A DNA stretch of 64,000 nt from Patescibacteria group bacterium (GCA_038063755.1 JBBTUL010000011.1:3946-67945); one strand, 5' to 3'; shown: positions 10,641 through 54,208, counted from the stretch's first letter. The notes: a model not told the origin generated them from the sequence alone. A program made the numbers and translations.

Positions 10641-13388
10641 GTGAACGTCAAAGCTAAAAAAGCGCTTTCGGAGCCGAATTTTAAGGACTCTGAGTTTGCA
10701 AGTTTCGCGAATAAACTAATCGAACGCGGGATTCTTGAGAAACCCGTTTCGGAGTTCGTTCGTGAATTGAACAAAGAGTCTTTCGGTGGTGATTCTCCGT
10801 GGCGGAGGATCAAGGTTGCCGATCTTACGAAGTCGGTGCTCGATTCTATTATTTGGACGAAGGATCGTCTTGATTTATTGAAGGATCACGTTCGACTTGG
10901 AGTCGAACTTGGTCCGGTCTATAAGATTCTTGCATATATCCCGAAGAAGATGGTTGATGCAAAGGCATCCGATCTTCGGGGAAAGAGCCGCAAGACTATT
11001 TTTCCTGAGCTGTCCGAGCCGGGCGTGGGGAGACTCGCAACCGACGAGGAAATCAAAAAGGGGCACATTGTCCCACTCAAGACATACACGCTAAAGAAGC
11101 CGTACGTTGTTTCGATTCCTGACCCTGAGAAATTCAGAGTGCTTTTCGTGAACGCGCCTCATCTTGGACTCGAATACAATCGAGTTCTTGCGGAGAACTT
11201 TTTGCGAAACGCGCTCGTTCGAGCGGAGAAGAAAAAGTTCGATGCAGTGGTTTTAACGGGTGCTCTTATGTGGCTCGATGCGAGTCGAGCGCATGGACAC
11301 CTTACCACTCACCGGGCGCTTTACTCCGGACTGGATTTTGATCCAGACGCGCTTGACCCTGGATACGGGGAAAAGGCAAAAAAAGTTCGCAAAGAAAAGA
11401 ATCCGAACGTTGTTACCTTCTCGACGCTTAGAGAGCGAGTGAAGATGGCGATGGGTGGATACAGGAAGGTTTTTCTTCTCGACGAGCGGAATCCTGTTTT
11501 CTCGGGTAAGGTCTACGTTTGCTTCGGAAAGCAGGAAGAAGAAATGATCGAGGCCGCGGCCCACGATCACATTCGATACGTCGTAGATAGGATGCGAGGA
11601 AGTGTCGATACCGAAAAGAAGGCCCTCGAGGCCGAGCTTAGATTCAAGTTGAGCGATGGGTCGAGTGGCGGTAAAGGGATTGACGAACTTCGTGAACGTA
11701 TCGACGAGCTCCGTCGTGAGGAGCAGAGAATGATTCAAACGAACGTTGATGTCATTGATAGGCGACGATTCGTTGACATCATTCGGACCCTCCTGATTTC
11801 CTGGTATAAGGAGGTAATTCCAAACTGTGAATTTGTTGCGCAAGGATCGACGGTTTTCTCGATCGGTGGAAAAACGATCCAAATCCTTCAAGAGGGCGAT
11901 GATTCGCTTTCCCGCGCGAAAATCGATAATGCCATGAAGGGGAGTTCGGGAAGAGCCCTTGGCGGGCGACTCTCGGACTTTGTTCTTGCTGCTGGACCGT
12001 ACAGTGTCGACGCTCGCGAGGGAATCATTGAGCGGGTTTCCGGGAAGAACCGTGAAACGACGCGTGTCTGGACGCTTCCTGTGGCAATCGACGTTGATTA
12101 TTTGCGGAATGCTCGACCGGAGCTTGTCCGGCGCGCTTCACCGCTCGAGAGATTGTTGGGAGATGCGGGCTTTAGTCCGGGAGTTTTCGAGCTTGGTTTT
12201 GTAAATGGTATTTGGGATTGCAGCGTTATCTCTCCAAGGACTTTCGGACACAAGGCACCGAAGGTGGTGGGTAGCACCCCATATATCTATCTCATTGCTG
12301 ATGGAGACTATCATTATGGTGCTCCTGCGAAAGACTGGATTTTTGATCCGGTAACCAGGTCCTATCTTCCTATTGAAGTTGCGGCATCGGAACTTTTCAT
12401 GAGAGAGTTCGTTGCCAAAGGAAAGGACCTTCCATTTTCTGGGTGGCATTGCGGAGGCGACTTCCTCCACGGGAAGCACTTCCCAACGCACCAGGCGAGA
12501 AATCCTGGAACGTTACCCTACGCGACCATCGCGAAAAGATTGAGCGAGGCCAGGAAGGATTCCGGCAAGGTTCAAGAGGTTTTGAATCTTATCGATAGTC
12601 AACTTCAGAAGAGGGGAGAGGTGTGGATGAACTCTCAGCTCGAAGAAGCGATCAGGATATCGATTCTTCCGAGAATTCCCTTCTTTGCTGCGGTTCTGAA
12701 GCACGCGAAGGATGCAGGAGTTCGGATGCGAGGGACCGCGGAGGTTTATACTGGGTCTTCTGATCTTGCGTCGATAGATATGGGATGTCTTAACGTTTTG
12801 GGCGGCAATCACGCGGAAAAGACGACTTTCGGAGAGTTTCTCGAAAGTCCTGTGATTGCGTGGATGATTCGCCTTGCTCTTGTCCCGAGCGGGTTTAGCC
12901 TCGAAGAGCTGGAACGGCTCGTTCGGGCGCCGCTTTTCGGACCGGAGAACATTGGATATGGTCTGCTCTCTGTGCCGGATGGGTACGAGTGGGCGATTCA
13001 TATTCGCCACGATCCTCCAGTCAAAGGTCCGCAGAACGGATGGACCTTGAGGGGAGTCGCGGAGAAATATCGCGAACGCGGTGACTATCCAAGGATTTTC
13101 ACTGGGCGGCACATGATCGCAATGAGTTCGGATATTCACCGAGCTGGAGCAAGTTTCGGACCTGATATCCATGTTGTTTCTGTGCCGGCGTGCACTGATG
13201 GCGATGCCTACGGTGAGCGTTTTGGCATGAGTCGGAACAACATCGGGTTTACCGTGGTCGGACTTCCGGTTCATGGACCGCTGGCTGGTCCTGTCCGGGT
13301 AATTCAGTTCACTCACGATATTTTGAGGAAGTATTTTGCGAATCCTTGGTCGATCGACTGGGACACCTTGTTCCGGGGAGCGATCTAG
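10641..13388 (+). CDS. Large hypothetical protein (915 aa); C-terminal half with ordered calcineurin-like metallophosphoesterase-like motifs
   Basis: GTG start 7 nt after AAGGAG. No recognisable family overall. Motifs in order: DGDYHYG (~12300), GGDFLHG (~12455), GGNHAE (~12801), HIRHD. An N-terminal weaker echo is present (FVNAPHLG ... FDAVVLTGALMWLD). Confidence 0.7.
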   Translation: MNVKAKKALSEPNFKDSEFASFANKLIERGILEKPVSEFVRELNKESFGGDSPWRRIKVADLTKSVLDSIIWTKDRLDLLKDHVRLGVELGPVYKILAYIPKKMVDAKASDLRGKSRKTIFPELSEPGVGRLATDEEIKKGHIVPLKTYTLKKPYVVSIPDPEKFRVLFVNAPHLGLEYNRVLAENFLRNALVRAEKKKFDAVVLTGALMWLDASRAHGHLTTHRALYSGLDFDPDALDPGYGEKAKKVRKEKNPNVVTFSTLRERVKMAMGGYRKVFLLDERNPVFSGKVYVCFGKQEEEMIEAAAHDHIRYVVDRMRGSVDTEKKALEAELRFKLSDGSSGGKGIDELRERIDELRREEQRMIQTNVDVIDRRRFVDIIRTLLISWYKEVIPNCEFVAQGSTVFSIGGKTIQILQEGDDSLSRAKIDNAMKGSSGRALGGRLSDFVLAAGPYSVDAREGIIERVSGKNRETTRVWTLPVAIDVDYLRNARPELVRRASPLERLLGDAGFSPGVFELGFVNGIWDCSVISPRTFGHKAPKVVGSTPYIYLIADGDYHYGAPAKDWIFDPVTRSYLPIEVAASELFMREFVAKGKDLPFSGWHCGGDFLHGKHFPTHQARNPGTLPYATIAKRLSEARKDSGKVQEVLNLIDSQLQKRGEVWMNSQLEEAIRISILPRIPFFAAVLKHAKDAGVRMRGTAEVYTGSSDLASIDMGCLNVLGGNHAEKTTFGEFLESPVIAWMIRLALVPSGFSLEELERLVRAPLFGPENIGYGLLSVPDGYEWAIHIRHDPPVKGPQNGWTLRGVAEKYRERGDYPRIFTGRHMIAMSSDIHRAGASFGPDIHVVSVPACTDGDAYGERFGMSRNNIGFTVVGLPVHGPLAGPVRVIQFTHDILRKYFANPWSIDWDTLFRGAI

Positions 13389-13491
13389 GTCGCAGATATT
13401 CGTACAGCCGAGATTTTCTCGGCTGTTTTTTATTGACAAAAAAAGCGATTCAGCTTTAAGCTGTGGTCAGCAATCTCCTTTCGGAGGGGAC

Positions 13492-14628
13492 ATGAAAATT
13501 TGCGGCAGAGATATCGGTATTCAAGGGGTCATCACGATATTCCTGATCTTCCTCGGCACGGTCTCACTGGTTGTATCGAGTACGCCGACCGAGATCCTGA
13601 TCCTGATGCTCTTGGCCTACGCCTCGAATGCGAGCTATTCGATGGTGAGCCGGTCTGCGGTGAGAACAAGCGTGCTTTACCACGCGCTTACCGTCTTCTT
13701 AAACAACACCTTGTTCTATTTGGTGTTGCACCGGCTTGTCCAGAACGATCTGAGCATTGTGCTCTTCATTCCGTATACCGTAGCCACGGTTTTCGGGAGT
13801 CAGAATGGCTCTCTCGCTTCGATGAGGATAGAGGAGAGGTTTGGCATCAAGGCGAACCCGGACAAGAAGGCGAAGCCTACGCCCCAGTCAGTCCTCGCTC
13901 AGAAGCTGTTGCTTGGTTTCGTGGGAGTGTTGGGTATCGTTGCGGCGGTTTTTACGCGCGACTTGAAGACCGCAGCGTTCGTCGCATTCCTCGCCCTCGC
14001 GGACAACCTTACCTTCTCGGTTTTGCGGCGCTCCAGGAATACCAACAACGTTGCATATCACATCATTGCATCGATCGCGAAAGGTACGGTGTGGTATTTG
14101 CTGTTCCGAGAACTCTCGCTTTCAAAAATGGCGCTCGGATTCTTTCCGCAGTACTGTTTCGGGTCCGTGCTTGGCGGGCTGATCGGTCAAGACGTGTCGT
14201 TGCGGATTGAGCGGTTGATAGGTGCATCCGCGGACGACCACCTAAAGTCCAAAGCGAAGCACTTCATGCCGACCGTTTCCCTCGCCATCCTTTCCCTTGG
14301 GGTGGTCGCGATCTCGTTTTTTGCGAACGAACCGAGCTTTGCCGTCTACCTTGCCTTGCTCTCCGGAGCCCAACAGGTGTCTTTCACCATCGTGAGTCGC
14401 TCCCGAAACCGAGGCCACATGGGCTACCACATGCTTGCTTCGATCTTGAGCAATGGGGTGTGGTTCTTGACGTTTCGCCAGGCGAACCTGGAACATTGGT
14501 CCCCAGACCTCTATCTACCATTTGCCCTCGGCGGAACTGCCGGAAGCATTAGCGGAGCCGGGATTTCGATGCAGATCGAACGCAAGCTTGGTATTTCCTC
14601 TGACGCGCATCTTGCGAAGCCTGCATAG
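13492..14628 (+). CDS. Integral membrane protein built from three ~115-aa internal repeats
   Basis: Each repeat has two TM helices, a (S/T)xVSRS(A/R)...Y(H)...L motif, then RIEERFGI / RIERLIGAS / QIERKLGIS. The ORF opens at 13336, but the likely start is ATG 13492 (MKICGRD). Confidence 0.65.
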   Translation: MKICGRDIGIQGVITIFLIFLGTVSLVVSSTPTEILILMLLAYASNASYSMVSRSAVRTSVLYHALTVFLNNTLFYLVLHRLVQNDLSIVLFIPYTVATVFGSQNGSLASMRIEERFGIKANPDKKAKPTPQSVLAQKLLLGFVGVLGIVAAVFTRDLKTAAFVAFLALADNLTFSVLRRSRNTNNVAYHIIASIAKGTVWYLLFRELSLSKMALGFFPQYCFGSVLGGLIGQDVSLRIERLIGASADDHLKSKAKHFMPTVSLAILSLGVVAISFFANEPSFAVYLALLSGAQQVSFTIVSRSRNRGHMGYHMLASILSNGVWFLTFRQANLEHWSPDLYLPFALGGTAGSISGAGISMQIERKLGISSDAHLAKPA

Positions 14629-14634
14629 TGATAC

Positions 14635-14660
14635 AACCCGACTTGCGTCGGGTTTTTTGT
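14635..14660 (+). terminator. Rho-independent terminator (AACCCGAC-ttgc-GTCGGGTT + T6)
   Basis: Perfect stem followed by TTTTTTG, just past the membrane-protein stop. Confidence 0.65.
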
Positions 14661-14727
14661 TTGGGACTTGCATTGCGGCAGGCGAGATGTTTAAGTCTTT
14701 ATAGTTGCGATTTAAAAGGAGGATTTT

Positions 14728-15468
14728 TTGTCTAGACGAAGAGTCGCCGTGTTCTTTGATTGGAACGGGACGCTCTTGAACGATCTGCCGCTAGTGTTCA
14801 AAAGCGTAATGGAGATTTTCAAACGGTATTCGGTTCGCCCTCCGAGCAAGAGGCAATACCTTGCGGAGATTAATGGAGACTTTATGAAATTCTACTGGGG
14901 ACATGGAATTCCTCCGAATAGATCCGCGTCCGACTTGAATAAGATCAGAAGGGGAATCATTTTTGAGAACTCAATTCCGACATCGCTCCATCAAAACGCG
15001 AGAAGGACTTTAAGCTCCCTGGAGAGAATGGGATTCACGCTTGCGCTTATCAGCGCAGAAGACTCCGCCCTTCTTGCTTCGGAAACCGCACGCTTTCACG
15101 TTCGCGAGAAGTTTAGCCTGATTCGTGGAGATTCTCGAAAGAAGACTCCGGTAATCAGGCGAGCGCTTCGCGAACTCGACGTTTCTCCAGAACGGGTGCT
15201 CTACGTTGGAGATACAGTTGATGATGTTGTTTCTGCAAGGAGAGCCGGAGTGCTCACCGTTGCATTCTCGAGGGGATATAATTCGAAGAGAAGGCTTGAG
15301 CGTGCCGCTCCGTCTTTCCTCATCGACAATCTCATTGATGTGCCAAGAATTGCCAAGCGGCTTTTTCTTGATGCAGGGTGCAATCTTGGAAGCAAGTCGG
15401 GGCGCGCGGTCTCGTCGCCTTGTTACGACGACCTACCCAGATTTGCGAGAAGCACCTTCCTCGACTGA
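14728..15468 (+). CDS. HAD-superfamily hydrolase
   Basis: TTG start 6 nt after AAAGGAGG. Motif I FFDWNGTL (DxN variant), motif IV VGDTVDDV. Confidence 0.75.
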   Translation: MSRRRVAVFFDWNGTLLNDLPLVFKSVMEIFKRYSVRPPSKRQYLAEINGDFMKFYWGHGIPPNRSASDLNKIRRGIIFENSIPTSLHQNARRTLSSLERMGFTLALISAEDSALLASETARFHVREKFSLIRGDSRKKTPVIRRALRELDVSPERVLYVGDTVDDVVSARRAGVLTVAFSRGYNSKRRLERAAPSFLIDNLIDVPRIAKRLFLDAGCNLGSKSGRAVSSPCYDDLPRFARSTFLD

Positions 15469-15560
15469 GGTTGATATTCACCAGTTGCCCGACATTTGTC
15501 GGGCACTTTAATTTTGTTATACTAGGGGCAGAAGCTTGAAAAGACAGAAAGGACTATGCG

Positions 15561-18254
15561 ATGGAAGCGGATCTTTCAAAGGTTCCGAAGAGATTGGTTG
15601 TTATGAACTGGAGTAACCCAGGAGGCAGTCCGAAGGTCTGCTTTCCTGGAGTACGGGCAGTACTTCCGTTCCCAGATTTGAGCGGTGCCCCGAGTATTGA
15701 AAAAGGGGTTGCCAAAATGAAAGAAGACGGGGCTTTTCTCGTCCAGTATCAGAAAGAAGACGTATCGTTTCCGGTTTCTCTCATTGTTCTCATCAAAGAA
15801 GCGAAGAACGTGGAAAAAGACGGAAGAAAAATCACGTTGATCATCGGAGAATTTACTCGAAGAGTTCTGTTGTCATCTCATTGCGATGAGGAGTTCGGAA
15901 GCAGTTATGAGTGGACTCCTGCGGAAGAGACTTGCTTTTCCGAAGAAGAGTTTGGCAGTCAGGAGACACAGGAAATGATTCAAGGTGTCGCAAGGTTAAG
16001 CGAAGAGCTTTTGGACCTCATGCAGCAGGGGAGCCCCAGTATTTTGCCCGAAATTTGGAAGCTTTGCGAAAAAAGAGAGTCAATCGGGGAATTTCTCGAC
16101 AATATTTCTTCGCCGCTCTTGAGCGTCTGCTCGATGAGTAAGGAAGTTGCCGATGCAGCCGAGGCGCTCATCTGTGAGCTGGGACATAAAAAGCGACTTG
16201 AAATTTTGTCTTTCATATATCCCATTGCCATTGATCTTCTGAAGAAGGAGAAGGATAGCAGCGAGACCTTTGATGGGCTTGTCGCGATTCCGTTTGACGT
16301 CAATGACGGGACAGAGCTTATCATGTTCCCCGGAACTCCATTTATGACCTCGCTTGGTGTAAAGGGATCGCTTTCCGAGGAAAGACTTCTTAAAAAGATA
16401 AGAGAAGACAAAGAAATGGTCTTCTATACCCCGAAAGACGGCATGATTCCGCAGATCGGAATTTTGGTTCATGTCAGGACGTCTCGGAATAACGGACTTA
16501 GATCAATTTCCTGCCGCGCGCTTCGACGCGTTGAAATACTTGATTACCAAATAGATCAAGGGATGTTTGGCGTAAAACACGGCGACGTAGATGAAATTCA
16601 GCTTGGTGAAAAAGAATTTCTAAGTGCCGAAGTGCAGAAAAAGATTTCCGATCTCAAGGCTTTTAGCGAAAGATTTCTGAGTTTTTTCAGGGCGGATGAA
16701 TCGGGTGGAGATGTTGAAATAGACGAACGGCATATCAAGAATTCGGAAAGCGTCGAGAGTCTTGGGAAATACCTTGACGTCCTTGCGCAACAACTTGTTT
16801 TTATTTTTCCACCCATAGACTCGATAATTACATCATCGCTTCGGGAACTGATTTGCGAGCTTGATCAAAAGAAGCGGATCGAGATTCTCTTGAACGCCTA
16901 TCCGCTCGCCATAGAATTTGCGAAAAAAACGGTAAGCGGGGAAAGCTTGATCATTGCTCCTTCGCCTGATCTTCTTGCGAATCCTTCGCAGCATGCCGAA
17001 CGACGAACCGCGTTCAAGCTCGAGGATTTTGCAAATGATTCCGCAGAAGTGGAAGTTCCTCTCTCGGATAAGCCTGGTCAACGACATCGTTCTCCAGAAG
17101 TCGAGACGTTCTATCGTTTTCTTCGGAAGAACGTTATTGGCGAAGGCGGACAAAAGCGTGCGATCAAGCGCCTTACTACTAGATTTGAGGTTTATCGCTC
17201 GCTTTTCCGGAAGCACCGCAAGCCGATAGGAACATTTCTATTTTTGGGTCCCTCGGGAGTCGGCAAGACAGAGCTTGCCGAACGGGTGGCAGAATTTCTT
17301 CTTGGACAGAAAACGTCTGTCACAAAAATTGCCTGCGGTGAGTATACAGAAGGGCATCAGGTTTCGAGGCTCATCGGCTCGCCGCCCGGATACGTTGGAT
17401 CGGACGATCGGCCGCTCCTTGCTCAGGAGCGAGTTGATAGGTATGGCATTGAGGCCGAAATCAAATGGCTGCAATCTCAACTAAACGAACCGAATTTGCC
17501 ACCGGAGAAAGAGAAGGTTTTGCTCGAGAGACTGAAAATTTTCGGATCTCATCTCGGGCACAAGCAGGGTTCGCGGTCAGGGGAGAGCTCAAAAGCAATC
17601 CGTACGGCGGATCTTGCGAGGGCCTATCCGGTTCTCTCGGTTCTCCTTGTCGACGAAATTGACAAAGCGCACGAAAATCTTTTAAAGTTTTTTCTTGAGG
17701 TTTCTTCAAAGGGGGTCGCGCAGCTTTCGAACGGTGAGGAAGTTGACCTTTCGAACTCGTTCATTATCTTCACGAGCAATCATGGATCGAAAAAAATCGC
17801 ACAGATTCTTCATGGAAAGGTCACGAGAGTAGGTTTCGGAGACGGCCACCAAGAAAAGTCTGTTTACGAGGTTGCCATGGATGAACTGAGGAGAGTCCTT
17901 CCGCCGGAACTTATCGGACGGATTCAAGATGACATTGTTGTTTTTTCGGAGTTGAGCCACGAAGAGATGCGGAAGATTCGAGACCTGAGATTTTCCGAGC
18001 TCGATCTGCAAATTCGGGCGAAGATGCCCAATCTTTCGGTCGAGTTTGATGGGGCTGCAAAAGAATTCATCTTTTCGAAATCCTCCGATCACCCGGAGTA
18101 CGGGGCACGAGTCCTGGAGGCGAAGATTGATCACTATGTCATCGAACCTTTAGCAGAACAGCTGAATAATGGCGAGCTAAAGGACGGCGACAAGGTTTTG
18201 GGGGTCCTCCTTGCGGGGGACGAGGAGATGGAGATTCGTTTCAAGAAGGTGTAA
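15561..18254 (+). CDS. Atypical AAA+ protein: novel ~520-aa N-terminal region plus a single ClpA/ClpB D2-like ATPase module
   Basis: Walker A FLFLGPSGVGKTELAE, GSPPGYVGSDD, Walker B LLVDEIDKAHENLLKFFLEV, sensor IIFTSNHGS and the D2 small domain are all ClpA/B-like. A ~60-aa coiled-coil insert sits between Walker A and Walker B. The N-terminus has two LICEL(G/D)xKKR(L/I)EIL..YP(I/L)AI repeats. Confidence 0.8.
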   Translation: MEADLSKVPKRLVVMNWSNPGGSPKVCFPGVRAVLPFPDLSGAPSIEKGVAKMKEDGAFLVQYQKEDVSFPVSLIVLIKEAKNVEKDGRKITLIIGEFTRRVLLSSHCDEEFGSSYEWTPAEETCFSEEEFGSQETQEMIQGVARLSEELLDLMQQGSPSILPEIWKLCEKRESIGEFLDNISSPLLSVCSMSKEVADAAEALICELGHKKRLEILSFIYPIAIDLLKKEKDSSETFDGLVAIPFDVNDGTELIMFPGTPFMTSLGVKGSLSEERLLKKIREDKEMVFYTPKDGMIPQIGILVHVRTSRNNGLRSISCRALRRVEILDYQIDQGMFGVKHGDVDEIQLGEKEFLSAEVQKKISDLKAFSERFLSFFRADESGGDVEIDERHIKNSESVESLGKYLDVLAQQLVFIFPPIDSIITSSLRELICELDQKKRIEILLNAYPLAIEFAKKTVSGESLIIAPSPDLLANPSQHAERRTAFKLEDFANDSAEVEVPLSDKPGQRHRSPEVETFYRFLRKNVIGEGGQKRAIKRLTTRFEVYRSLFRKHRKPIGTFLFLGPSGVGKTELAERVAEFLLGQKTSVTKIACGEYTEGHQVSRLIGSPPGYVGSDDRPLLAQERVDRYGIEAEIKWLQSQLNEPNLPPEKEKVLLERLKIFGSHLGHKQGSRSGESSKAIRTADLARAYPVLSVLLVDEIDKAHENLLKFFLEVSSKGVAQLSNGEEVDLSNSFIIFTSNHGSKKIAQILHGKVTRVGFGDGHQEKSVYEVAMDELRRVLPPELIGRIQDDIVVFSELSHEEMRKIRDLRFSELDLQIRAKMPNLSVEFDGAAKEFIFSKSSDHPEYGARVLEAKIDHYVIEPLAEQLNNGELKDGDKVLGVLLAGDEEMEIRFKKV

Positions 18255-18308
18255 TAATCCGGCATGAAAATGCCGGTTTTTTATTTCAAAATCAGCGATT
18301 TTCATCCG

Positions 18309-18337
18309 TTGACAAGCATGATGTCATCGGCTACTAT
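18309..18337 (+). promoter_or_regulatory. Sigma70-like promoter TTGACA-N17-TACTAT for rpsP
   Basis: Consensus -35 with 17-nt spacer. The -10 ends 10 nt before ATG 18348, implying an (almost) leaderless mRNA. Confidence 0.5.
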
Positions 18338-18347
18338 GGCTTCCATA

Positions 18348-18671
18348 ATGCTTGCTATAAAACTTCAGCGAATCGGAAAAAAGAAACAGCCAAGCTACCG
18401 TATCGTGGTGGCGGAAAGGCGATCGAAACTCGGAGCTCCTCCGGTTGAAGATATGGGGTCATACAACTCGGTTACCAAAAAAGGATCTGTGGCAAATGAC
18501 CGTGTTTTGTATTGGGTCTCAAAAGGCGCAAAACCGACGACAACCGCGCACAACCTTCTCGTTCGTCTCGGCGCGCTTTCTTCTCCAAAGATTGCGGTAA
18601 AAATGAAGAAAAAAGCGGTCTTGGAGGAAACCGCAAAGGCGCCGGAGATGTCTCCAGAGAAGGCCGAATAG
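18348..18671 (+). CDS. rpsP: 30S ribosomal protein S16
   Basis: MLAIKLQRIGKKKQPSYRIVVAERRS matches the S16 N-terminus. The ORF opens at 18264, but the S16 homology starts at ATG 18348. Confidence 0.8.
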   Translation: MLAIKLQRIGKKKQPSYRIVVAERRSKLGAPPVEDMGSYNSVTKKGSVANDRVLYWVSKGAKPTTTAHNLLVRLGALSSPKIAVKMKKKAVLEETAKAPEMSPEKAE

Positions 18672-33141: not shown

Positions 33142-35868
33142 ATGCCCAAAGAAAAAACAAATCGGTCAGTAGCTCGTCGTATACTCGCAACACCATCTCA
33201 CCTTCGGAGATTTTACACAAAGGAAGGAGTACATCCTTTCGCCGAGGTTGAGTGGAAGAGCGCCGTTGTGACTGTACCAGGAGTTACCGGCATGCTTGAG
33301 CGGGAGGTTGAGGTTCCGGCATCATGGTCAGAGCATGCGGTTCGAATTGCAGCGGCGAAGTATTTTCGAGGACGGATTGGGACAAGCGAGTGGGAGTCTT
33401 CGGTGAAGCAGATGATCTCTCGCGTCGCAGGGACGATCCGCGATTGGGGAAAAAAATTCGGTTATTTCTCAAGCGAAGAAGCATCGAGTGTTTTTCATGA
33501 TGAACTCACTTCGATTTTACTTCATCAGCGCGCTGCGTTTAATTCTCCGGTTTGGTTCAACGTTGGCGTTATGGCCGAGCCGCAATGTTCCGCGTGTTTT
33601 ATTCTTTCGGTTGAGGATAATATGGATTCTATTTTGGACTGGATTAAAAACGAGGGACTCATCTTTAAGCGGGGGTCTGGTGCCGGAATAAATCTTTCAA
33701 CGCTTCGTGCCGAACGAGAGACGCTATCGCAAGGAGGACATTCTTCGGGACCTGTTTCGTTTATGCGAGGTGCCGATTCGGTTGCAGGGATGATCGCTTC
33801 CGGTGGTTCCACGAGGCGTGCCGCAAAGATGGTCGTGATGAATATTGATCACCCCGACATCATGCAGTTCGTTTCTTCAAAGGCAGAAGAGGAGAAGAAG
33901 ATCAGAGCGTTTATTGATGCGGGATACAATATGTATGACTTAAACAATGAAGCGTGGCACTCCATCCAATATCAGAATGCGAATAATTCTGTTCGAGTGA
34001 CAGACGAGTTTATGTCAGCGGTTGAGCGGGACGAATCATTCTCGACAAAGTTCATTCGTAATAACGACGTTGCGGAAACACATCGCGCGAAAGATATGAT
34101 GCGTTCGATTGCGCAAGCGGCATGGGATTGCGGGGACCCAGGAATCCAATTCGATACCATCATCAACAGGTGGCATACGTGTCCCGTGACGGGGCGTATT
34201 AATGCGTCGAATCCATGCAGCGAATACATGCACCTTGACGATTCCGCATGCAACCTTGCCTCGATAAATCTCATGAAGTATCTCGGCGAAGATGGGTCGT
34301 TCGACGTTGATGCCTTCAGGCATACCGTTCGAATCATGATCCTTGCCCAGGAGATTGCGGTTGAGGGTTCTTCCTATCCAACGAAAAAAATAACCGAAAA
34401 CGCGAGGAATTTCAGGCAGCTTGGCCTGGGATATGCGAATTTGGGAGCGCTTCTTATGAAAAAAGGTATCGCGTATGATTCGGAGGAGGGCCGACACTCA
34501 GCTGCTTCGATTACGGCGCTCATGACCGGAGAGGCGTATCGCTGGTCCGCGGTCATTGCAAAGGAAAAAGGACCGTTTGTGGGTTTTGATGTGAACCGAA
34601 AGCCGATGCTGCGCGTGCTTGGCATGCATCGTGACGCACTTGATCAAATAAGACCGGAAAGAGTTTTTGACCGTCGGGTGTTGAGCGAAGCGGTAGAGGC
34701 GTGGGATGAGGCAGTGCAATTTGGCGGAAAATACGGAGTCCGAAATTCTCAAGCAACCGTTCTCGCTCCGACGGGAACCATAGCGCTTATGATGGACTGT
34801 ACAACGACCGGCATCGAGCCGGAGTTCGCTCTCGTGAAAACGAAACATCTTGTTGGCGGAGGGACGATGAAATTTATTAACTCTGTGGTGCGGGATGCGC
34901 TCGTGACGCTTGGTTATGGCGAAGAAGAACGAAATGCTATCGTTTCATACATCGAGGACAAAGGGGTTGCCGAGGGAGCGCCGTATCTGAAAGCAGAACA
35001 TCTTTCGGTTTTTGACTGTGCGGTGCGATCTCAGAACGGAACGCGATCAATCCCGTGGCAGGGTCACGTGAAGATGGTCGCGGCCGCGCAGCCATTCCTC
35101 TCGGGAGCAGTTTCAAAAACTTTCAACATGTCTGCCGAGACGACGGTCGAAGAGATAATGGAAGCATATGTTTCAGCGTGGAAGTTGGGACTCAAGGCTT
35201 TTGCGGTGTACCGCGATGGCTCAAAGGCTGCGCAGCCGCTTGTTACGGGAAACGGAGGCGGAACGAAAAGGAAGAAGCAGGAAGAACCGGTGCGAAGGCG
35301 CTTGTCCGCTACTCGCAAATCGGAAACGCATAAGTTTTCCATTGCAGGGCACGAAGGATACCTCACGCATAGCATTTTCGACAACGGAGATCTCGCAGAA
35401 ATTTTTATTAAAATGTCGAAACAAGGATCGACACTTGCTGGACTTCTCGATACTTTTGCGATTGCGGTTTCTATCGCCATTCAGTACGGAGTGCCTCTTT
35501 CGACTTTGGTACAGAAGTTCTCGCACGGGAGGTATGAGCCAGCTGGATTTACCGCAAATCCGGATATTCCTGTTGCCACGTCTATCACCGACTATATTTT
35601 TCGATATCTCGCGGTAAAGTTTCTGACTTCGACAGAACTTGAAGACCTCGGAATTTCGGGCACCTCTCAAATTAAGAGCGACACGACGACAAAAGAAGAG
35701 GTCGAGGTTGAGCTTGAAAAACCGGCAGCGCTTCCTCCAAAAAGAGAGGCCTCAAGCGGCGGCGTGGTGTATGCCGACAGTGTTTGCCGCGCGTGCGGCG
35801 GTATGCTCATCCAGACGGGATCTTGTAAGACCTGTATTCAGTGCGGTACTTCAAACGGCGGTTGCTGA
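33142..35868 (+). CDS. nrdJ: Ribonucleoside-diphosphate/triphosphate reductase, class II (adenosylcobalamin-dependent, NrdJ)
   Basis: 908 aa. ATP-cone-less class II layout. Conserved NPCSE-like catalytic region. C-terminal Cys-rich zinc ribbon (CRACGG...CKTCIQCG). Confidence 0.9.
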   Translation: MPKEKTNRSVARRILATPSHLRRFYTKEGVHPFAEVEWKSAVVTVPGVTGMLEREVEVPASWSEHAVRIAAAKYFRGRIGTSEWESSVKQMISRVAGTIRDWGKKFGYFSSEEASSVFHDELTSILLHQRAAFNSPVWFNVGVMAEPQCSACFILSVEDNMDSILDWIKNEGLIFKRGSGAGINLSTLRAERETLSQGGHSSGPVSFMRGADSVAGMIASGGSTRRAAKMVVMNIDHPDIMQFVSSKAEEEKKIRAFIDAGYNMYDLNNEAWHSIQYQNANNSVRVTDEFMSAVERDESFSTKFIRNNDVAETHRAKDMMRSIAQAAWDCGDPGIQFDTIINRWHTCPVTGRINASNPCSEYMHLDDSACNLASINLMKYLGEDGSFDVDAFRHTVRIMILAQEIAVEGSSYPTKKITENARNFRQLGLGYANLGALLMKKGIAYDSEEGRHSAASITALMTGEAYRWSAVIAKEKGPFVGFDVNRKPMLRVLGMHRDALDQIRPERVFDRRVLSEAVEAWDEAVQFGGKYGVRNSQATVLAPTGTIALMMDCTTTGIEPEFALVKTKHLVGGGTMKFINSVVRDALVTLGYGEEERNAIVSYIEDKGVAEGAPYLKAEHLSVFDCAVRSQNGTRSIPWQGHVKMVAAAQPFLSGAVSKTFNMSAETTVEEIMEAYVSAWKLGLKAFAVYRDGSKAAQPLVTGNGGGTKRKKQEEPVRRRLSATRKSETHKFSIAGHEGYLTHSIFDNGDLAEIFIKMSKQGSTLAGLLDTFAIAVSIAIQYGVPLSTLVQKFSHGRYEPAGFTANPDIPVATSITDYIFRYLAVKFLTSTELEDLGISGTSQIKSDTTTKEEVEVELEKPAALPPKREASSGGVVYADSVCRACGGMLIQTGSCKTCIQCGTSNGGC

Positions 35869-47637: not shown

Positions 47638-49293
47638 ATGAAGTTTGACGACAAAAAAATAAAGCAGATCCTCTTAAAAGAAAACTACGTTACCGAAGAA
47701 GATATTCGAAATGCAGAAAGTTTTACCAAAACACATCCTGTCTCGTTCACGGAGTATTTACTCAAGGAAAATCTCATCACCAAGGATCTCTTGGGGCAAA
47801 CGATCGCCGAATCGTTCGGCCTTCCGTATGCGGATCTTAACTTGCGTCCGGCAACGACCGAACAGGTTAATGTACTGCCGGAAGATATTGCGAAGAAATA
47901 TCGTCTTGTGGTGTTCTGGTGGAACGACAAGCGGGTCATTATAGCAACCGATGATCCTGGGCAACCCGGCGTGCTCGCGGCCGCGGCGCAGTTATATCCA
48001 AAGCGCGCGGTCTCTCTTGCGTACGCGTTACCAGAAGACGTTAATGCGGCATTTATTTTTTATCAAAAACCGCTCGAAACTCGCTTCGGGAAGATTATCG
48101 AGGGTCAGGGACGAATTGCTCCGGAGCTTTTGGAAGAAATTTTTGGGGACGCGATTGCGTATCACGCCTCTGATATCCATTTTGAACCTCAGCAAAAAAA
48201 TGTGCTTGTGCGATTTCGCATTGACGGAGTTTTGCACGTAGCCGGTAGGATCCCCAAAGAGTATTATGAGAATATTCTTAATCGCATAAAGGTGCAAAGC
48301 GGCCTGCTCATTGATGAACACTTTGCGGCTCAAGACGGTTCGCTTCGATATGAAAAAGACGGCTCAGCAATTGATATGCGAATTTCAATCGTGCCGACCA
48401 TTGAAGGCGAAAAAGCCGTCTTACGTATTTTAGCGGCGTATGCTCAGGGGCTTAACCTTTTAGACCTTGGACTTTCTCCATTGCATCAAGAATTACTTAA
48501 GGCATCTGCCAAAAAACCGTTTGGAATGATTCTCGTTACGGGGCCGACGGGTAGCGGAAAAACGACAACCTTGTACGCGCTCGTAAAACTCGTGAACAGC
48601 CCGGACGTGAATATCACCACCATCGAAGATCCGGTGGAATACAAGGTGCTTGGCATAAATCAAATACAAATAAATCCTCAGACTGATCTTACTTTTGCCA
48701 AAGGCTTACGCTCTATTGTGCGCCAAGACCCGGATATTATTCTCGTGGGCGAAATTCGAGATAACGAAACAGCAGAAATATCAATCAATGCGGCTTTGAC
48801 CGGACATTTGCTATACTCCACTTTTCACGCCAACGACTCCGCCGCGGCAATTCCCAGACTTCTTGATATGGGAGTTGAGCCGTTTCTCCTCGCTTCCACG
48901 CTTGAGGTGATCATTGCGCAACGGCTCGTGCGCAAAATTTGCGATCGTTGTCGTTATGGCGCGGAGAAAAAAATCGGTGATTTTGATACGCCACAATTTA
49001 AATCTGCCGCGCGTTATTTTCCCGAAGAATCCATAACGCTTTATCAAGGCAAGGGGTGCGCGTCGTGTAGCAATACGGGCTACCGAGGAAGAACTGCGAT
49101 TTTTGAGTTCATCCAAATTACTCCCGATATGCAAAATCTTATTTTACGCTCGCCGTCTTCCCAGGAAATCTGGTCTTTGGGGTGCAAAGAAGGTGCGCAA
49201 TCGCTTTTTGAAGATGGAATTCTGAAAGTAAGAGCCGGTATCACGACACTCGAAGAACTACTTCGCGTCGCTGAGCCGCCACAACAAAAATAG
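47638..49293 (+). CDS. pilB: Type IV pilus assembly ATPase PilB (GspE family)
   Basis: N-terminal GSPII_E_N-like domain, Walker A GPTGSGKTTT, Asp/His boxes, tetracysteine motif CDRC...CASC. Confidence 0.9.
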   Translation: MKFDDKKIKQILLKENYVTEEDIRNAESFTKTHPVSFTEYLLKENLITKDLLGQTIAESFGLPYADLNLRPATTEQVNVLPEDIAKKYRLVVFWWNDKRVIIATDDPGQPGVLAAAAQLYPKRAVSLAYALPEDVNAAFIFYQKPLETRFGKIIEGQGRIAPELLEEIFGDAIAYHASDIHFEPQQKNVLVRFRIDGVLHVAGRIPKEYYENILNRIKVQSGLLIDEHFAAQDGSLRYEKDGSAIDMRISIVPTIEGEKAVLRILAAYAQGLNLLDLGLSPLHQELLKASAKKPFGMILVTGPTGSGKTTTLYALVKLVNSPDVNITTIEDPVEYKVLGINQIQINPQTDLTFAKGLRSIVRQDPDIILVGEIRDNETAEISINAALTGHLLYSTFHANDSAAAIPRLLDMGVEPFLLASTLEVIIAQRLVRKICDRCRYGAEKKIGDFDTPQFKSAARYFPEESITLYQGKGCASCSNTGYRGRTAIFEFIQITPDMQNLILRSPSSQEIWSLGCKEGAQSLFEDGILKVRAGITTLEELLRVAEPPQQK

Positions 49294-49316
49294 CAACTGC
49301 TCTGTGTCTCTATTGT

Positions 49317-50408
49317 ATGCCGCAGGAAACATTACAGCGTAAATTTTTCAATATCGGCCTTGGCAGAGAACGGGAGTATTTTGTTGAAAATCTAAGTACG
49401 TTGGTCGCCGCTGGCATGCCGATCCTAAACGCGCTCGATGCCATTGTAAAAGGACTACGTTCACGCCGTATGAAGCACATCGTTGCTCTTATCCGGGATG
49501 ATATTGAATCCGGTTCGCCGATCTGGAAAGCGCTTAAGAAAACGAACCTATTCGCTGATCACGCCATCTCGCTCGTCCGGCTCGGCGAAGAAGCGGGAAG
49601 ATTGGCCGAGAACCTGAAGGTGGTCGCGAGCGAACAAGAGAAAGGGAGAGTTTTTCGCTCCAAGCTTCGTTCGGCAATGATGTATCCGGTCTTCGTGCTT
49701 TCACTCACGGTTATTATCGGCGTGGGTATTGCCTGGTTCATATTGCCCAAATTGGCGCTTGTATTTGCCCAGCTTCGAATAGAGTTGCCACTCATCACCA
49801 GGGTACTAATCGGAATCGGCATTTTTCTAAACAACTACGGGCAGTATGCCGTGCCTGCGGCCATCACGGTGCTCGTCGCTTTATTTTATTTTGCGTTTTT
49901 ATCTCCCAGGACAAAAGATATCGGTCAATTTATTTTATTTTCTTTGCCCGGCGTGAAGAGGCTTATTCAGGAGGTGGAGTTGGCGCGATTCGGTTATCTT
50001 TTGGGAACGCTTCTCGAAGCGGGCTTGCCGATCACACAGGCGCTCGGTTCGCTCGCAAGCGCGACCGAAATTCCGCAATACAGAAAACTTTACGCGTACC
50101 TTCACGATTCAGTGGAAGACGGCAACTCGTTCCAGAAAAGTTTTACTTCATTTAAGCACGTCGATCCCCTTATCTCCGTGCCCATACAGCAACTCATCAT
50201 CGTCAGCGAACAAGCCGGTACGCTTTCCAAAACGGTGCTCAAGATAGGCCAAATATATGAAACAAAGTCCGACACCACCGCAAAGAACCTCGCCGTCATT
50301 CTTGAGCCGATACTGCTTGTCATCGTGTGGCTTGGAGTCGTAGCTGTGGCGCTGGCAGTCATTCTGCCTATTTATAGTCTCATTGGCGGATTTAGTCCCA
50401 ACAATTGA
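49317..50408 (+). CDS. pilC: Type IV pilus platform protein PilC (GspF family)
   Basis: Two GspF repeats and three TM segments. Confidence 0.88.
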   Translation: MPQETLQRKFFNIGLGREREYFVENLSTLVAAGMPILNALDAIVKGLRSRRMKHIVALIRDDIESGSPIWKALKKTNLFADHAISLVRLGEEAGRLAENLKVVASEQEKGRVFRSKLRSAMMYPVFVLSLTVIIGVGIAWFILPKLALVFAQLRIELPLITRVLIGIGIFLNNYGQYAVPAAITVLVALFYFAFLSPRTKDIGQFILFSLPGVKRLIQEVELARFGYLLGTLLEAGLPITQALGSLASATEIPQYRKLYAYLHDSVEDGNSFQKSFTSFKHVDPLISVPIQQLIIVSEQAGTLSKTVLKIGQIYETKSDTTAKNLAVILEPILLVIVWLGVVAVALAVILPIYSLIGGFSPNN

Positions 50409-50412
50409 TCAG

Positions 50413-50856
50413 ATGAAAATTTGTAAGACCGGGGGCTTTACTCTGCTGGAAATAGTTCTCTCCATCGCGACGATTACGATTATTGCCGGAATTTCCATTC
50501 CCATCTATCAATCGTTCCAGGTTAAAAATGATTTGGATATTACCGCGAATACATGGGTCCAAACATTGCGGCGAGCCCAAGTACTTTCGCGCGCAGTTGA
50601 CGGAGACAGTACCTGGGGAGTAAAAATTCAACCCGCCGGTTTGATTTTATTTAAAGGCGCGAGTTACGACTCACGCGATGCTACCTTTGATGAAATTTTT
50701 ATGGTGCCCACGAGCATCAGCGCCTCCGGCATTACCGAAATCGTTTTTGCAAAGTTCACCGGCAACCCGCAGGCAACCGGTACCACAACGCTCACGGCTT
50801 CGACTGCCGAAATTAGGACGATTAACATAAATGAAAAAGGTACGCTTACATACTAA
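50413..50856 (+). CDS. Prepilin-type (minor) pilin
   Basis: MKICKTGG|FTLLEIVLS: class III signal with Glu+5. The ORF opens at 50383. Confidence 0.75.
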   Translation: MKICKTGGFTLLEIVLSIATITIIAGISIPIYQSFQVKNDLDITANTWVQTLRRAQVLSRAVDGDSTWGVKIQPAGLILFKGASYDSRDATFDEIFMVPTSISASGITEIVFAKFTGNPQATGTTTLTASTAEIRTININEKGTLTY

Positions 50857-52591: not shown

Positions 52592-52671
52592 TATATGGGC
52601 CACACCGCATATATTCTCATCCGCTCGAAAATATTTTAGCAAGCTAAATATTTTTCTCACTCATTTCGATT

Positions 52672-53127: not shown

Positions 53128-53139
53128 ATAACACCCAAC

Positions 53140-54207: not shown

Positions 54208-54208
54208 T

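What the first reader, a model, noticed from the sequence alone, without database searches (positions are those of the whole stretch)
10641..18254. Four-gene accessory block of unassignable proteins: 915-aa orphan, triplicated membrane protein, HAD hydrolase, Clp-like ATPase with novel N-terminus
Between the FAD oxidase and the rpsP operon lie four co-directional genes bounded by a terminator at 14635 and a consensus promoter at 18309. None maps to a named pathway. Two of them (915 aa and 897 aa) are the largest non-surface proteins in the window. The mix is unusual: a putative phosphoesterase-like domain, a polytopic membrane repeat protein, a small HAD phosphatase and a Clp-D2-type unfoldase module without a partner protease. 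It does not match any described defence or housekeeping system I can name, so this is the best candidate for an undescribed functional module here.
Basis: partly seen in the sequence, partly recalled or inferred. Interest (0 to 1): 0.75.

Follow-up and report, generated by a model that had tools for sequence, protein, structure and literature searches.

The report
Conserved phosphoesterase–membrane protein pair, unknown function
Two of the four genes, a large double-phosphoesterase protein and a 12-helix membrane protein built from a unit found in phage DNA-replication modules, are always neighbours in Paceibacterota genomes, a Clp-like ATPase joins them in some genomes, and no library or paper search used here describes the set.

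Summary
The four ORFs are real and their domain calls are mostly right, but they are not one four-gene unit.

- **Conserved core: g1 + g2.** They are adjacent in every related locus examined (about 13 distinct genomes). This holds down to 24-27% identity and after rearrangement to convergent, swapped or split forms.
- **g2.** It has 12 predicted TM helices arranged as three (1+3)-helix repeats. The 3-TM unit occurs as a ~100-aa stand-alone gene (PHROG 33664, unknown function) in phage DNA-replication and recombination modules.
- **g4.** It is a D2-only Clp-type AAA+ with a family-specific 62-aa insertion and a tandemly duplicated, probably Lon-N-like, N-domain. Relatives lie next to g1/g2 in four genomes.
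- **g3 (HAD).** It is found only in this organism.

Function is unknown. My best guess is a membrane-docked phosphodiesterase or nuclease with an accessory unfoldase. No library or paper search used here describes such a module.

The parts
10641..13388 (+). g1: 915-aa cytoplasmic protein. Helical N-domain (res 1-113), MPE-like N-lobe (res ~150-545), MPE-like C-lobe (res ~545-915).
11088..12275 (+). g1 N-lobe: degenerate metallophosphoesterase-fold domain.
11535..11816 (+). Three long helices (res 299-392) inserted in the g1 N-lobe; coiled-coil-like.
   Evidence: Secondary structure of both models. Weak MukB/SNARE sequence hits at residues 318-377.
12273..13385 (+). g1 C-lobe: probable active metallophosphoesterase domain, with a helical insertion between motifs II and III.
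   Evidence: Motifs DGDYH (D556-x-H558), GGDFLHG (D607), GGNHAE ([N/D]723-H724) and G-[DH]-x-H are conserved in all sequences that cover them, including homologues at 24-27% identity. Active MPEs (Mre11, SbcD, Rv0805) align longer to the full model than to the N-half alone (vs 93). The fold of this lobe alone was not searched.
13404..13426 (+). Terminator-like hairpin plus T-run directly after g1, followed by TTGACA at 13431.
   Evidence: The 57-nt segment 13389-13445 folds at -19.6 kcal/mol, z -5.1. Same position in L001 and L004.
13492..14628 (+). g2: 378-aa membrane protein with 12 predicted TM helices. Three repeats of one linker TM plus a 3-TM unit (res 1-126, 127-253, 254-378).
   Evidence: Repeat alignment. 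K+R count is 24 in the predicted cytoplasmic loops against 3 outside. PHROG 33664, E 2.3e-13. 199 representatives in the exhaustive search. Alignment with phage units.
14635..14654 (+). Terminator-like hairpin after g2.
14728..15468 (+). g3: HAD-superfamily hydrolase. Not part of the conserved module.
   Evidence: Pfam HAD_2 at 72.6 bits; no NCBIfam equivalog cut-off reached. Absent from L001 and all other related loci; found only in L025, the same organism. Motif I reads DWNGT.
15561..16970 (+). g4 N-terminal region: two tandem copies (res 1-240 and 241-470) of a ~235-aa domain, probably Lon-N-like.
   Evidence: The copies are 26% identical to each other. The L001 orthologue has a single copy. 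No Pfam or PDB hit. hhalign against the E. coli Lon N-domain gives E 0.014-0.015, collinear over 137 columns. The L029 counterpart hits LON_substr_bdg at E 3e-4.
17088..18254 (+). g4 AAA+ module of Clp D2 type plus D2-small domain. Carries a 62-aa insertion (res ~629-690, nt 17445-17630) after the GYVG pore loop, and a VGF tripeptide after sensor 1.
   Evidence: AAA_2 113.7 bits, ClpB_D2-small 46.4 bits. Alignment with ClpC/ClpB-type D2 modules. An insertion at the same place in L001 and L033, and probably L029.
18259..18276 (+). Terminator-like hairpin after g4.
   Evidence: An equivalent hairpin is present in L001.
18309..18337 (+). Promoter-like site (TTGACA-17-TACTAT) in front of rpsP.
   Evidence: Equivalent TTGACA-17-TACCAT in L001.

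Best explanation
**Shown**
- The region holds a two-gene core, found so far only in Patescibacteria-type genomes (named ones are Paceibacterota/Parcubacteria), plus one recurrent accessory gene and one unrelated insertion.
- g1 is a soluble 915-aa protein made of two metallophosphoesterase-fold lobes, a fused pseudo-dimer. The N-lobe has lost the canonical metal-ligand motifs and carries a three-helix insertion. The C-lobe keeps D-x-H, G-D, G-[N/D]-H and G-[DH]-x-H across the whole family.
- g2 is a membrane protein with 12 predicted TM helices, both ends predicted cytoplasmic, made of three copies of a 3-TM unit, each preceded by a linker helix. The same unit is a stand-alone ~100-aa gene in phage DNA-replication and recombination modules.
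- g4 is a single-ring, D2-only Clp-type AAA+ with all ATPase and pore-loop motifs, a family-specific insertion, and a duplicated N-domain.

**Inferred**
- g2 (and, by analogy, a trimer of the phage unit) forms a membrane platform or conduit. Its conserved cytoplasmic SRSRNR loops and IE(R/K)xxGxxSDxHL tails would dock g1.
- The g1 C-lobe would then hydrolyse a phosphodiester substrate at the membrane. DNA or RNA ends are the most likely substrate, because the nearest folds are Mre11/SbcD/PolD-DP1-type and the phage unit sits beside such nucleases, polymerases, ligase and ribonucleotide reductase. The purpose could be processing, salvage or exclusion of incoming nucleic acid.
- Where present, the g4 hexamer would use Lon-N-like domains to bind a protein of this complex or a substrate and unfold it, possibly handing it to a ClpP encoded elsewhere through its VGF loop.
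- g3 (HAD) is not part of the module.
For: - **g1-g2 linkage.** They are adjacent in L001-L011, L027 (convergent; g1 24% identical, E 2e-64), L028 (one gene between), L029 (order swapped), L031, L032, and L033 (g1 split exactly at the lobe boundary, g2 divergent).
- **g1 fold.**
- **Motif conservation.**
- **g2 repeats and topology.**
- **Phage units and their context.**
  - 12 IMG/VR contigs carry the unit.
  - Neighbours include ribonucleotide reductase, phrog_704/284 exonucleases (one with a weak Metallophos_2 hit), an SbcC-like ATPase, a PD-(D/E)XK nuclease, primase and helicase.
  - In Tenacibaculum phage Larrie the unit lies between DNA pol III alpha and DNA ligase.
  - In L030 it lies near a primase-helicase.
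- **g4.**. g4-like genes lie beside g1/g2 in L001, L029 and L033, with an insertion at the same place in L001 and L033.
- **Lon-N signals.**
Against: - The C-lobe fold was not searched separately.
- Sequence-level links of g1 to any MPE family are insignificant. There is no Pfam hit. hhalign against the phage phrog_704 nucleases gives P 0.03, and 1 of 100 column shuffles scores as well.
- Motif IV His (H790) is replaced in divergent members.
- Every gene has its own hairpin and a promoter-like element, so co-transcription is not shown.
- g4-like genes accompany the pair in only 4 of about 13 genomes.
- Other recurrent neighbours (PCMT in 5 genomes, Ddl in 6 loci) point to protein repair or cell-wall themes.
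- g1 has no relative in phage collections, so the phage unit works without it.
- The Lon-N assignment rests on three sub-threshold signals. Profile searches against PDB sequences found no Lon.
Confidence: 0.4

Rival explanations
1. Anti-phage defence or exclusion module: a membrane sensor or anchor (g2), a nuclease effector (g1) and an AAA+ partner (g4), comparable in logic to membrane-plus-effector systems such as Zorya or Kiwa (my knowledge) or to the ClpB-domain DolB of Dodola. The phage-borne unit would then act as superinfection exclusion or a decoy.
For: - The composition fits: membrane protein, nuclease-like fold, ATPase.
- g4 hits PADLOC models PDC-M37B (E 1e-35) and DolB (E 2e-15). 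DolB is described as carrying a ClpB domain (PMC11514479).
- Phages carry the g2 unit.
- g4 and PCMT presence is patchy, and the position of the pair varies between genomes.
Against: - g1 and g2 hit no PADLOC model, and the g4 hits cover only the generic AAA_2 region.
- Flanks are housekeeping genes in every locus (rpsP, EF-P, MnmA, Ddl, fmt/def, ribosomal proteins), not defence islands or mobile elements.
- g1 and g2 diverge together from 63/87% to 24/27% identity, as expected for vertical inheritance.
- In phages the unit lies in replication modules, not at typical moron positions.
Confidence: 0.2
2. Small-molecule or ion system. g2 (and the phage unit) is a channel or transporter, for example for a divalent metal such as Mn2+/Fe2+ or for a nucleoside or cofactor. 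g1 is a metal-dependent phosphodiesterase or pyrophosphatase acting on a nucleotide, a second messenger or a lipid-linked envelope precursor.
For: - Polar residues inside TM helices (N, S, Y-H, P-Y, G-x-x-x-G-x-x-x-S) and cytoplasmic E/D/H residues are invariant or nearly invariant from phage units to g2 repeats.
- The (1+3)x3 pseudo-symmetry is typical of channels and transporters (my knowledge).
- The phage unit lies next to metal- or cofactor-dependent enzymes such as ribonucleotide reductase and MPE nucleases.
- Neighbours include Ddl (six loci), IMPDH in L029, and a weak MurG-like N-terminus fused to a unit in P0167.
Against: - g2 hits no transporter family in Pfam or NCBIfam.
- No structure of g2 could be obtained.
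- A 915-aa two-lobed protein with a coiled-coil insertion is unusually elaborate for a simple nucleotide phosphodiesterase.
- The top fold matches are DNA-handling MPEs.
Confidence: 0.2
3. Protein quality-control or repair module. g1 acts as a protein phosphatase or scaffold at a membrane complex, working with protein-repair and unfolding enzymes.
For: - The two recurrent accessory neighbours are both protein-maintenance enzymes: PCMT in 5 genomes, including the rearranged L027, and the Lon-N-like/Clp AAA+ in 4 genomes.
Against: - PPP phosphatases score well below the nuclease and Pol-B-subunit hits.
- PCMT and the AAA+ never co-occur with each other in the loci seen.
- The phage context of the unit is DNA metabolism, not proteostasis.
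Confidence: 0.1
4. No module beyond chance synteny: four independent genes, each with its own promoter and terminator, that happen to be neighbours.
For: - Hairpin terminators follow every gene, and promoter-like hexamers precede g2 and rpsP.
- The HAD gene is not conserved.
- g4-like genes are absent from most g1-g2 loci.
Against: - g1-g2 adjacency survives in all of about 13 genomes, in four different arrangements and in several different neighbourhoods. Shared ancestry of gene order does not explain this.
- g4-like genes with an insertion at the same place recur beside the pair in three different arrangements.
Confidence: 0.07

Closest known systems
Mre11 / SbcD and archaeal PolD DP1 nucleases, and the inactive B-subunits of eukaryotic DNA polymerases (calcineurin-like metallophosphoesterase superfamily)
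   Same: - The g1 C-lobe keeps the dimetal-site motifs.
- The degenerate N-lobe is like the inactive Pol B-subunits, which are its best matches.
- Mre11/SbcD work as dimers (my knowledge), and g1 has two lobes in one chain.
- In phages the g2 unit lies near SbcD- and SbcC-like genes.
   Different: - There is no significant sequence match to any MPE family model.
- No Rad50/SbcC partner lies beside g1.
- g1 has a tandem-lobe architecture, large helical insertions, a helical N-domain, and an obligate membrane-protein neighbour.
PHROG 33664 (phage protein family of unknown function)
   Same: Each g2 repeat is homologous to this ~100-aa 3-TM protein (E 2.3e-13; 37-56% identity to the unit of IMG/VR contig L012, up to 61% in tblastn segments).
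   Different: g2 is a threefold fusion with added linker helices, sits in a cellular genome, and is always paired with g1. The phage proteins are single units without any g1 relative.
Class I Clp/Hsp100 ATPases (ClpC, ClpA, ClpB) and D2-only relatives such as human Skd3/CLPB
   Same: - The g4 AAA+ module aligns to D2 with Walker A/B, sensor 1, Arg finger, sensor 2, GYVG pore loop and D2-small domain.
- Like Skd3, it has a single D2-type module behind an unrelated N-terminal domain (my knowledge; Skd3 paper listed).
- VGF lies where ClpC-type relatives in alignment A4 have M-G-F / F-G-F.
   Different: - g4 has no D1, no Clp_N and no M-domain.
- It has a 62-aa insertion after the pore loop.
- Its N-terminus is two copies of a probable Lon-N-like domain.
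- It scores far below every NCBIfam equivalog cut-off (187 vs 1232 bits for ClpB).
Lon protease N-terminal (LON_substr_bdg) domain
   Same: The separate N-part gene in L029 matches PF02190 over nearly its full length (E 3e-4).
   Different: All signals are below family thresholds. There is no Lon AAA or protease domain. The domain is duplicated in the window and attached to a Clp-type, not Lon-type, AAA+.
Dodola (DolA/DolB) and PADLOC candidate PDC-M37
   Same: g4 hits the ClpB-like models DolB and PDC-M37B.
   Different: The hits cover only the generic AAA_2 region. None of g1-g3 matches any PADLOC model, including the partner proteins.

Membership tests
Calcineurin-like metallophosphoesterase superfamily (g1) | Two-layer beta-sandwich MPE fold | tested here: met
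   [not shown]
Calcineurin-like metallophosphoesterase superfamily (g1) | Metal-ligand motifs D-x-H, G-D, G-N-H-[DE], H, G-H-x-H | tested here: inconclusive
   C-lobe: motifs I, II, III and V are conserved in all sequences that cover them, and motif IV His is variable. N-lobe: motifs II and III are absent and the motif I His is not conserved.
Calcineurin-like metallophosphoesterase superfamily (g1) | Match to a family sequence model (Pfam Metallophos / Metallophos_2) | tested here: not met
   No Pfam, NCBIfam or PHROG hit at E <= 1. The profile against PDB sequences found nothing.
Calcineurin-like metallophosphoesterase superfamily (g1) | Metal-dependent phosphoester hydrolysis | not testable with these tools
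   Needs enzyme assays.
Mre11/SbcD nuclease family (g1) | Partner Rad50/SbcC ABC ATPase and sequence membership | tested here: not met
   No SbcC-like gene lies next to g1 in the window or most relatives. No NCBIfam or Pfam Mre11/SbcD hit.
PHROG 33664 (g2 repeat unit) | Significant match to the family profile | tested here: met
   E 2.3e-13 with 2 stretches. All three repeats align with the phage units. The family has no known function.
Clp/Hsp100 class I ATPases ClpA/ClpB/ClpC (g4) | Two AAA+ modules (D1 + D2), with Clp_N and/or M-domain | tested here: not met
   Only AAA_2 + ClpB_D2-small at residues ~510-897. No Clp_N or D1. Scores are far below NCBIfam equivalog cut-offs.
Clp/Hsp100 D2-type AAA+ module (g4) | Walker A/B, sensor 1, Arg finger, sensor 2, aromatic pore loop, D2-small domain | tested here: met
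   GPSGVGKT, VDEIDKAH, TSN, GR, GAR and GYVG all align with the D2 of ClpC/ClpB-type proteins. PF07724 113.7 bits, PF10431 46.4 bits.
ClpP-partnered unfoldases (g4) | [LIVM]-G-[FL] docking loop after sensor 1, and a ClpP in the genome | tested here: inconclusive
   VGF (window), MGF (L001) and IGI (L033) lie where ClpC-type sequences in alignment A4 have M-G-F / F-G-F; that this is the ClpP-docking loop is my knowledge. The rest of the genome was not available.
Lon N-terminal domain, PF02190 (g4 N-domains) | Match to the family model at the gathering threshold | tested here: not met
   No hit for either window copy, even at E <= 10. The L029 counterpart scores 21.2 bits against a cut-off of 28.7, and L033 gives E 0.04. 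hhalign against E. coli Lon N gives E 0.015. The resemblance stands as a lead only.
HAD superfamily (g3) | Pfam HAD model above threshold and the catalytic motif I DxDx[TV] | tested here: met
   HAD_2 at 72.6 bits against 23.8. Motif I is DWNGT, so the Asp+2 position is Asn. No specific equivalog is reached (65 bits against 225 for phosphoglycolate phosphatase).
Known anti-phage defence systems (PADLOC-DB v2) | All components of a listed system present | tested here: not met
   g1, g2 and g3 have no hits. g4 hits only the ClpB-like subunits PDC-M37B and DolB.
SWEET / PnuC-type triple-helix-bundle transporters (g2) | 3-TM bundle repeats joined by linker helices, and family sequence motifs | not tested
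   The 3+1 repeat logic is a resemblance from memory only. No Pfam hit.

The most novel reading that the evidence does not exclude
A previously undescribed membrane-anchored machine of Paceibacterota. A pseudo-trimeric membrane protein, derived from (or donated to) a small membrane protein of phage replication modules, recruits a fused pseudo-dimeric Mre11-like nuclease, and in some lineages a dedicated Lon-N/Clp-D2 unfoldase. The machine would process nucleic acid at the cell membrane, for DNA uptake and nucleotide salvage or for exclusion of foreign DNA, in bacteria reported to lack nucleotide synthesis (my knowledge).
Probability: 0.25. Interest if true: 0.8.

Novelty: categorically new. 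Interest (0 to 1): 0.62.

Why it matters
- **For Patescibacteria.** These bacteria are small, mostly uncultured, thought to live on other cells, and full of unannotated genes (my knowledge). A conserved gene pair whose parts have recognisable folds but no described relatives gives a concrete, testable handle on lineage-specific biology.
- **For phage biology.** The same 3-TM unit is widespread in phage DNA-replication modules, with about 100 single-unit representatives among the 150 listed, and no function is known for it. Solving the cellular pair would probably explain a recurrent phage gene too.
- **For protein families.**
  - The tandem active/inactive MPE architecture has no hit in any sequence library searched here.
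  - I know of no described Clp-D2 ATPase with Lon-N-like domains.

Tried and rejected
- **g1 sequence searches.**
  - Pfam, NCBIfam, PADLOC and PHROGs gave nothing.
  - phmmer and a profile against PDB sequences gave only noise such as SIR3 and MukB.
- **g1 internal duplication.** hhalign of the N-half against the C-half was not detectable (P 0.64). The tandem-MPE reading therefore rests on fold and motifs.
- **g1 C-lobe vs phage phrog_704/284 nucleases.** Only the GNH block aligned. The score was 22 against 15.4 +/- 2.6 for column shuffles, with 1 of 100 as good. I treat this as a motif-level resemblance, not homology.
- **g1 in phages.** tblastn against GenBank phages and a pattern scan of IMG/VR found none.
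- **g4 N-terminus.**
  - The word-index search with residues 1-510 returned nothing, not even the protein itself.
  - Profiles A3 and A7 against PDB found no Lon.
  - The L029 Lon-N-like protein against profile A3 was not significant.
  - A metagenome scan with patterns specific to the insertion found only the same organism.
- **Fusion partners of the g2 unit.** Only coiled-coil tails turned up, plus one weak MurG-like N-terminus.
- **Cluster names.** None was available for g2 relatives.
- **Literature.** No paper held both 'Patescibacteria' and 'metallophosphoesterase'; other searches found nothing relevant.
- **Rejected: a four-gene operon.** Hairpins follow every gene, and HAD is absent from relatives.
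- **Rejected: g1 as an Mre11/SbcD member or g4 as ClpB/ClpC/ClpA.** Defining features were tested and not met.


Full report
**1. What is there**

The window holds four co-directional ORFs at the stated coordinates: g1 10641-13388 (915 aa), g2 13492-14628 (378 aa), g3 14728-15468 (246 aa) and g4 15561-18254 (897 aa). An FAD-linked oxidase lies upstream and rpsP downstream.

- g1 and g2 have no significant hit in Pfam, NCBIfam or PADLOC.
- g3 is a HAD_2 hydrolase (72.6 bits).
- g4 has AAA_2 + ClpB_D2-small only at residues ~510-897.
- The source is a Patescibacteria MAG: an identical protein carries NCBI locus tag AAB495_02480.

**2. Corrections to the observation**

- Terminator-like hairpins follow each of the four genes, at 13404, 14635, 15486 and 18259.
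- The one after g1 is strong: a 10-bp stem plus a T-run, in a segment (13389-13445) that folds at -19.6 kcal/mol, z = -5.1. A TTGACA follows it. Hairpins sit at the same place in relatives with 63% and 43% identical g1.
- The promoter-like site at 18309 is real (10 of 12 matches).
- The 908-aa ORF at 33142-35868 is a class II ribonucleotide reductase. g4 is therefore not among the two largest non-surface proteins.

**3. Which genes belong together**

g1 has 21 homologue clusters; those that carry a name are all Patescibacteria/Paceibacterota.

| Locus | Arrangement |
|---|---|
| Window | FAD oxidase / g1 g2 HAD g4 / rpsP |
| L001, L002 (g1 63%, g2 86-87% identical) | g1 g2 g4(657 aa) / rpsP; no HAD |
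| L003/L006, L004, L005/L008, L007, L010 (g1 ~43%) | Ddl g1 g2 PCMT |
| L009 (Azambacteria; g1 27%, g2 49%) | g1 g2 |
| L011 (g1 41%) | g1 g2, contig ends inside g2 |
| L027 (g1 24%, E 2e-64) | PCMT(-) g2(+) g1(-), convergent |
| L028 | g2, a 199-aa gene on the other strand, g1 |
| L029 (g1 39%, g2 39%) | g2, g1, 331-aa gene, 386-aa AAA_2+D2-small gene |
| L031, L032 | g1 g2, in other housekeeping contexts |
| L033 | g1 split at the lobe boundary into 748-aa and 388-aa genes, then a 759-aa g4-like gene; g2 divergent |

- g1-g2 adjacency holds in every case, through four different arrangements.
- The HAD gene occurs only in the window's own organism (L025 is the same organism, 100% identical).
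- g4-like genes accompany the pair in four genomes.
- PCMT accompanies the pair in five genomes, and Ddl in six loci.

**4. g1**

- An AlphaFold2 model from the 21-sequence alignment is of moderate quality (pLDDT 65). Foldseek against PDB found nothing.
- A second model of residues 140-545 alone is better (pLDDT 72, pTM 0.72). It is again an MPE fold: Pol alpha B 13.4, MJ0936 13.1, Pol delta small subunit 13.0, DP1 12.0, Mre11 11.8.
- This N-lobe lacks canonical motifs II and III, and its motif I His is N or L in divergent members. It carries three long inserted helices (res 299-392).
- The C-half has, in the canonical order, DGDYH, GGDFLHG, GGNHAE, RHD and SSDIH. D556, H558, D607, H724 and the last His are conserved in every sequence that covers them, down to 24% identity.
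- Catalytically active MPEs align longer, and with different percent identity, to the full model than to the N-half (for example Rv0805 193 vs 168 residues, Mre11 219 vs 198). I infer that the C-lobe is a second MPE domain, but its fold was not searched on its own.
- The split of g1 in L033 falls exactly between the lobes.
- g1 has no hydrophobic segment of TM character. I therefore take it to be cytoplasmic.

**5. g2**

- It consists of three ~125-aa repeats, each with one linker helix plus three helices.
- With 12 TM helices and both ends inside, the predicted cytoplasmic loops hold 24 K+R against 3 outside.
- Each repeat carries the motifs QN.SF..VSRSRNR....YH..AS..SN..WFLTFRQ and PY..G....GS..G...SM.IER..GA.SD.HL.
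- The 3-TM core matches PHROG 33664 (E 2.3e-13, unknown function).
- It occurs as a ~100-aa stand-alone gene on 12 IMG/VR contigs at 42-61% identity.
- The exhaustive phmmer search found 199 representatives. Of the 150 listed, about 43 are multi-repeat forms of 345-570 aa and about 100 are single units. Some single units are fused to coiled-coil tails with no known domain.
- In phages the unit always lies in DNA and nucleotide metabolism modules:
  - beside ribonucleotide reductase (L013, L017);
  - beside phrog_704/284 'DNA repair exonucleases', one with a weak Metallophos_2 hit (L013, L019-L021);
  - beside an SbcC-like ATPase (L018);
  - beside a PD-(D/E)XK nuclease and an AAA_24 ATPase (L012, L016);
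  - beside a primase-helicase (L014, L030) and a Dda-like helicase (L022);
  - between DNA pol III alpha and DNA ligase in Tenacibaculum phage Larrie.
- No g1 relative was found in phages.

**6. g4**

- The AAA+ module aligns with the D2 of ClpC/ClpB-type proteins. It has intact Walker A/B, sensor 1, Arg finger, sensor 2 and the GYVG pore loop.
- It has a 62-aa insertion right after the pore loop. An insertion at the same place occurs in L001 and L033 and, from the stretched Pfam AAA_2 match, probably in L029.
- A VGF tripeptide sits where ClpC-type relatives in alignment A4 have M-G-F / F-G-F, the ClpP-docking loop position by my knowledge.
- The N-terminal 470 residues are two copies (26% identical) of a ~235-aa domain that is present once in L001.
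- No library recognises this domain. Three weak, independent signals point to the Lon N-terminal domain:
  - The separate 331-aa gene preceding the AAA gene in L029 matches PF02190 nearly end to end (E 3e-4, 21.2 bits against a cut-off of 28.7).
  - The L033 protein gives E 0.04.
- I put the Lon-N assignment at about 60%.
- PADLOC hits (PDC-M37B, DolB) cover only the generic AAA_2 region. DolB is a ClpB-domain subunit of Dodola (PMC11514479).

**7. g3**

g3 is a generic HAD-IA type hydrolase that reaches no equivalog cut-off. Its motif I is DWNGT. It is absent from the sister genome, where g2 and g4 are 98 nt apart. I treat it as an unrelated insertion.

**8. How it most likely works**

Shown:
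- The architecture of the three proteins.
- The strict g1-g2 linkage.
- The recurrent g4 linkage.
- The phage distribution of the unit.

Inferred:
- g2 is a membrane platform or conduit whose conserved cytoplasmic loops and tails bind g1.
- The conserved C-lobe site of g1 hydrolyses phosphodiester bonds at the membrane. Nucleic acid is the most likely substrate, given the nearest folds and the phage context.
- g4, where present, remodels a component or substrate and may feed a ClpP encoded elsewhere.

The rivals are a defence or exclusion system, a transporter plus small-molecule phosphodiesterase, and a proteostasis module with PCMT and Clp. None is excluded. The overall mechanism is held at about 0.4, and the nuclease-specific part at about 0.25-0.3.

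**9. Novelty**

- Neither g1 nor g2 belongs to a described family. The only family hit is a PHROG of unknown function.
- None of the libraries searched, and none of the paper searches, describes the pair or the three-component set.
- The folds (MPE, AAA+) are known. The tandem active/inactive MPE protein, the triplicated phage-type membrane unit, their obligate pairing and the Lon-N/Clp-D2 ATPase are not described in anything I searched.
- I therefore rate the module as new at the system level, with function unproven.

Noticed in passing
L033:4134-9815 (minus strand): Here g1 is split into two genes (748 aa and 388 aa) exactly at the boundary between the two MPE lobes, directly followed by a 759-aa g4-like ATPase. 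The 748-aa part is ~200 aa longer than the window's N-half.
   Followed up: partly
L029:7044-9202: The g4-type protein is encoded as two adjacent genes in different frames: a 331-aa Lon-N-like protein and a 386-aa AAA_2+D2-small protein. This could be a genuine split or a frameshift in the assembly.
   Followed up: partly
L003:15935-17339: A diversity-generating-retroelement-like pair (bAvd accessory protein plus an RVT_1 reverse transcriptase) lies ~3 kb downstream of the g1-g2-PCMT cluster in a 304-kb Paceibacterota contig.
   Followed up: no
window 33142-35868: A 908-aa class II (B12-dependent) ribonucleotide reductase with a TSCPD domain. In phages the g2-type unit often lies next to ribonucleotide reductase genes.
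   Followed up: no
window 58193-63316: A 1707-aa ORF with no significant Pfam hit (only a weak MG2 match, E 0.19), inside a stretch of higher G+C (0.54-0.56 against ~0.48 elsewhere). It is probably a large surface protein or foreign DNA.
   Followed up: no
window 14728-15468 (g3): HAD motif I reads DWNGT. The Asp+2 general acid/base of HAD phosphatases is replaced by Asn, so the enzyme may not be an ordinary phosphatase.
   Followed up: no
window 18264-18671: The mechanical rpsP ORF starts at 18264, inside the g4 terminator. From the S16-like sequence MLAIKLQRIGKKK the real start is probably near 18348, just after the promoter-like site at 18309-18337.
   Followed up: partly
window ~48000-56000: Cumulative GC skew rises steadily to ~50 kb (2.61) and then falls, and GC skew changes sign near 52 kb. 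This may be a replication origin or terminus, or a switch in gene orientation.
   Followed up: no
P0172, P0186, P0189, P0195, P0200 (representatives); context of P0172 in L030: Single g2-type units are fused to long C-terminal coiled-coil tails with no known domain. P0172 lies in a phage- or plasmid-like contig near a primase-helicase (DUF5906/VapE) and a MazG-like gene.
   Followed up: partly
P0167 (305 aa): A g2-type unit is preceded by an N-terminal segment with weak similarity to the MurG glycosyltransferase N-domain (E 0.004). This could be a fusion artefact or a hint of a cell-wall neighbourhood.
   Followed up: no
P0097, P0099, P0104, P0108, P0115, P0126, P0131, P0183: A subgroup of g2 relatives of 447-464 aa matches the query in 3-4 separate stretches, which may mean a fourth repeat or extra helices.
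   Followed up: no
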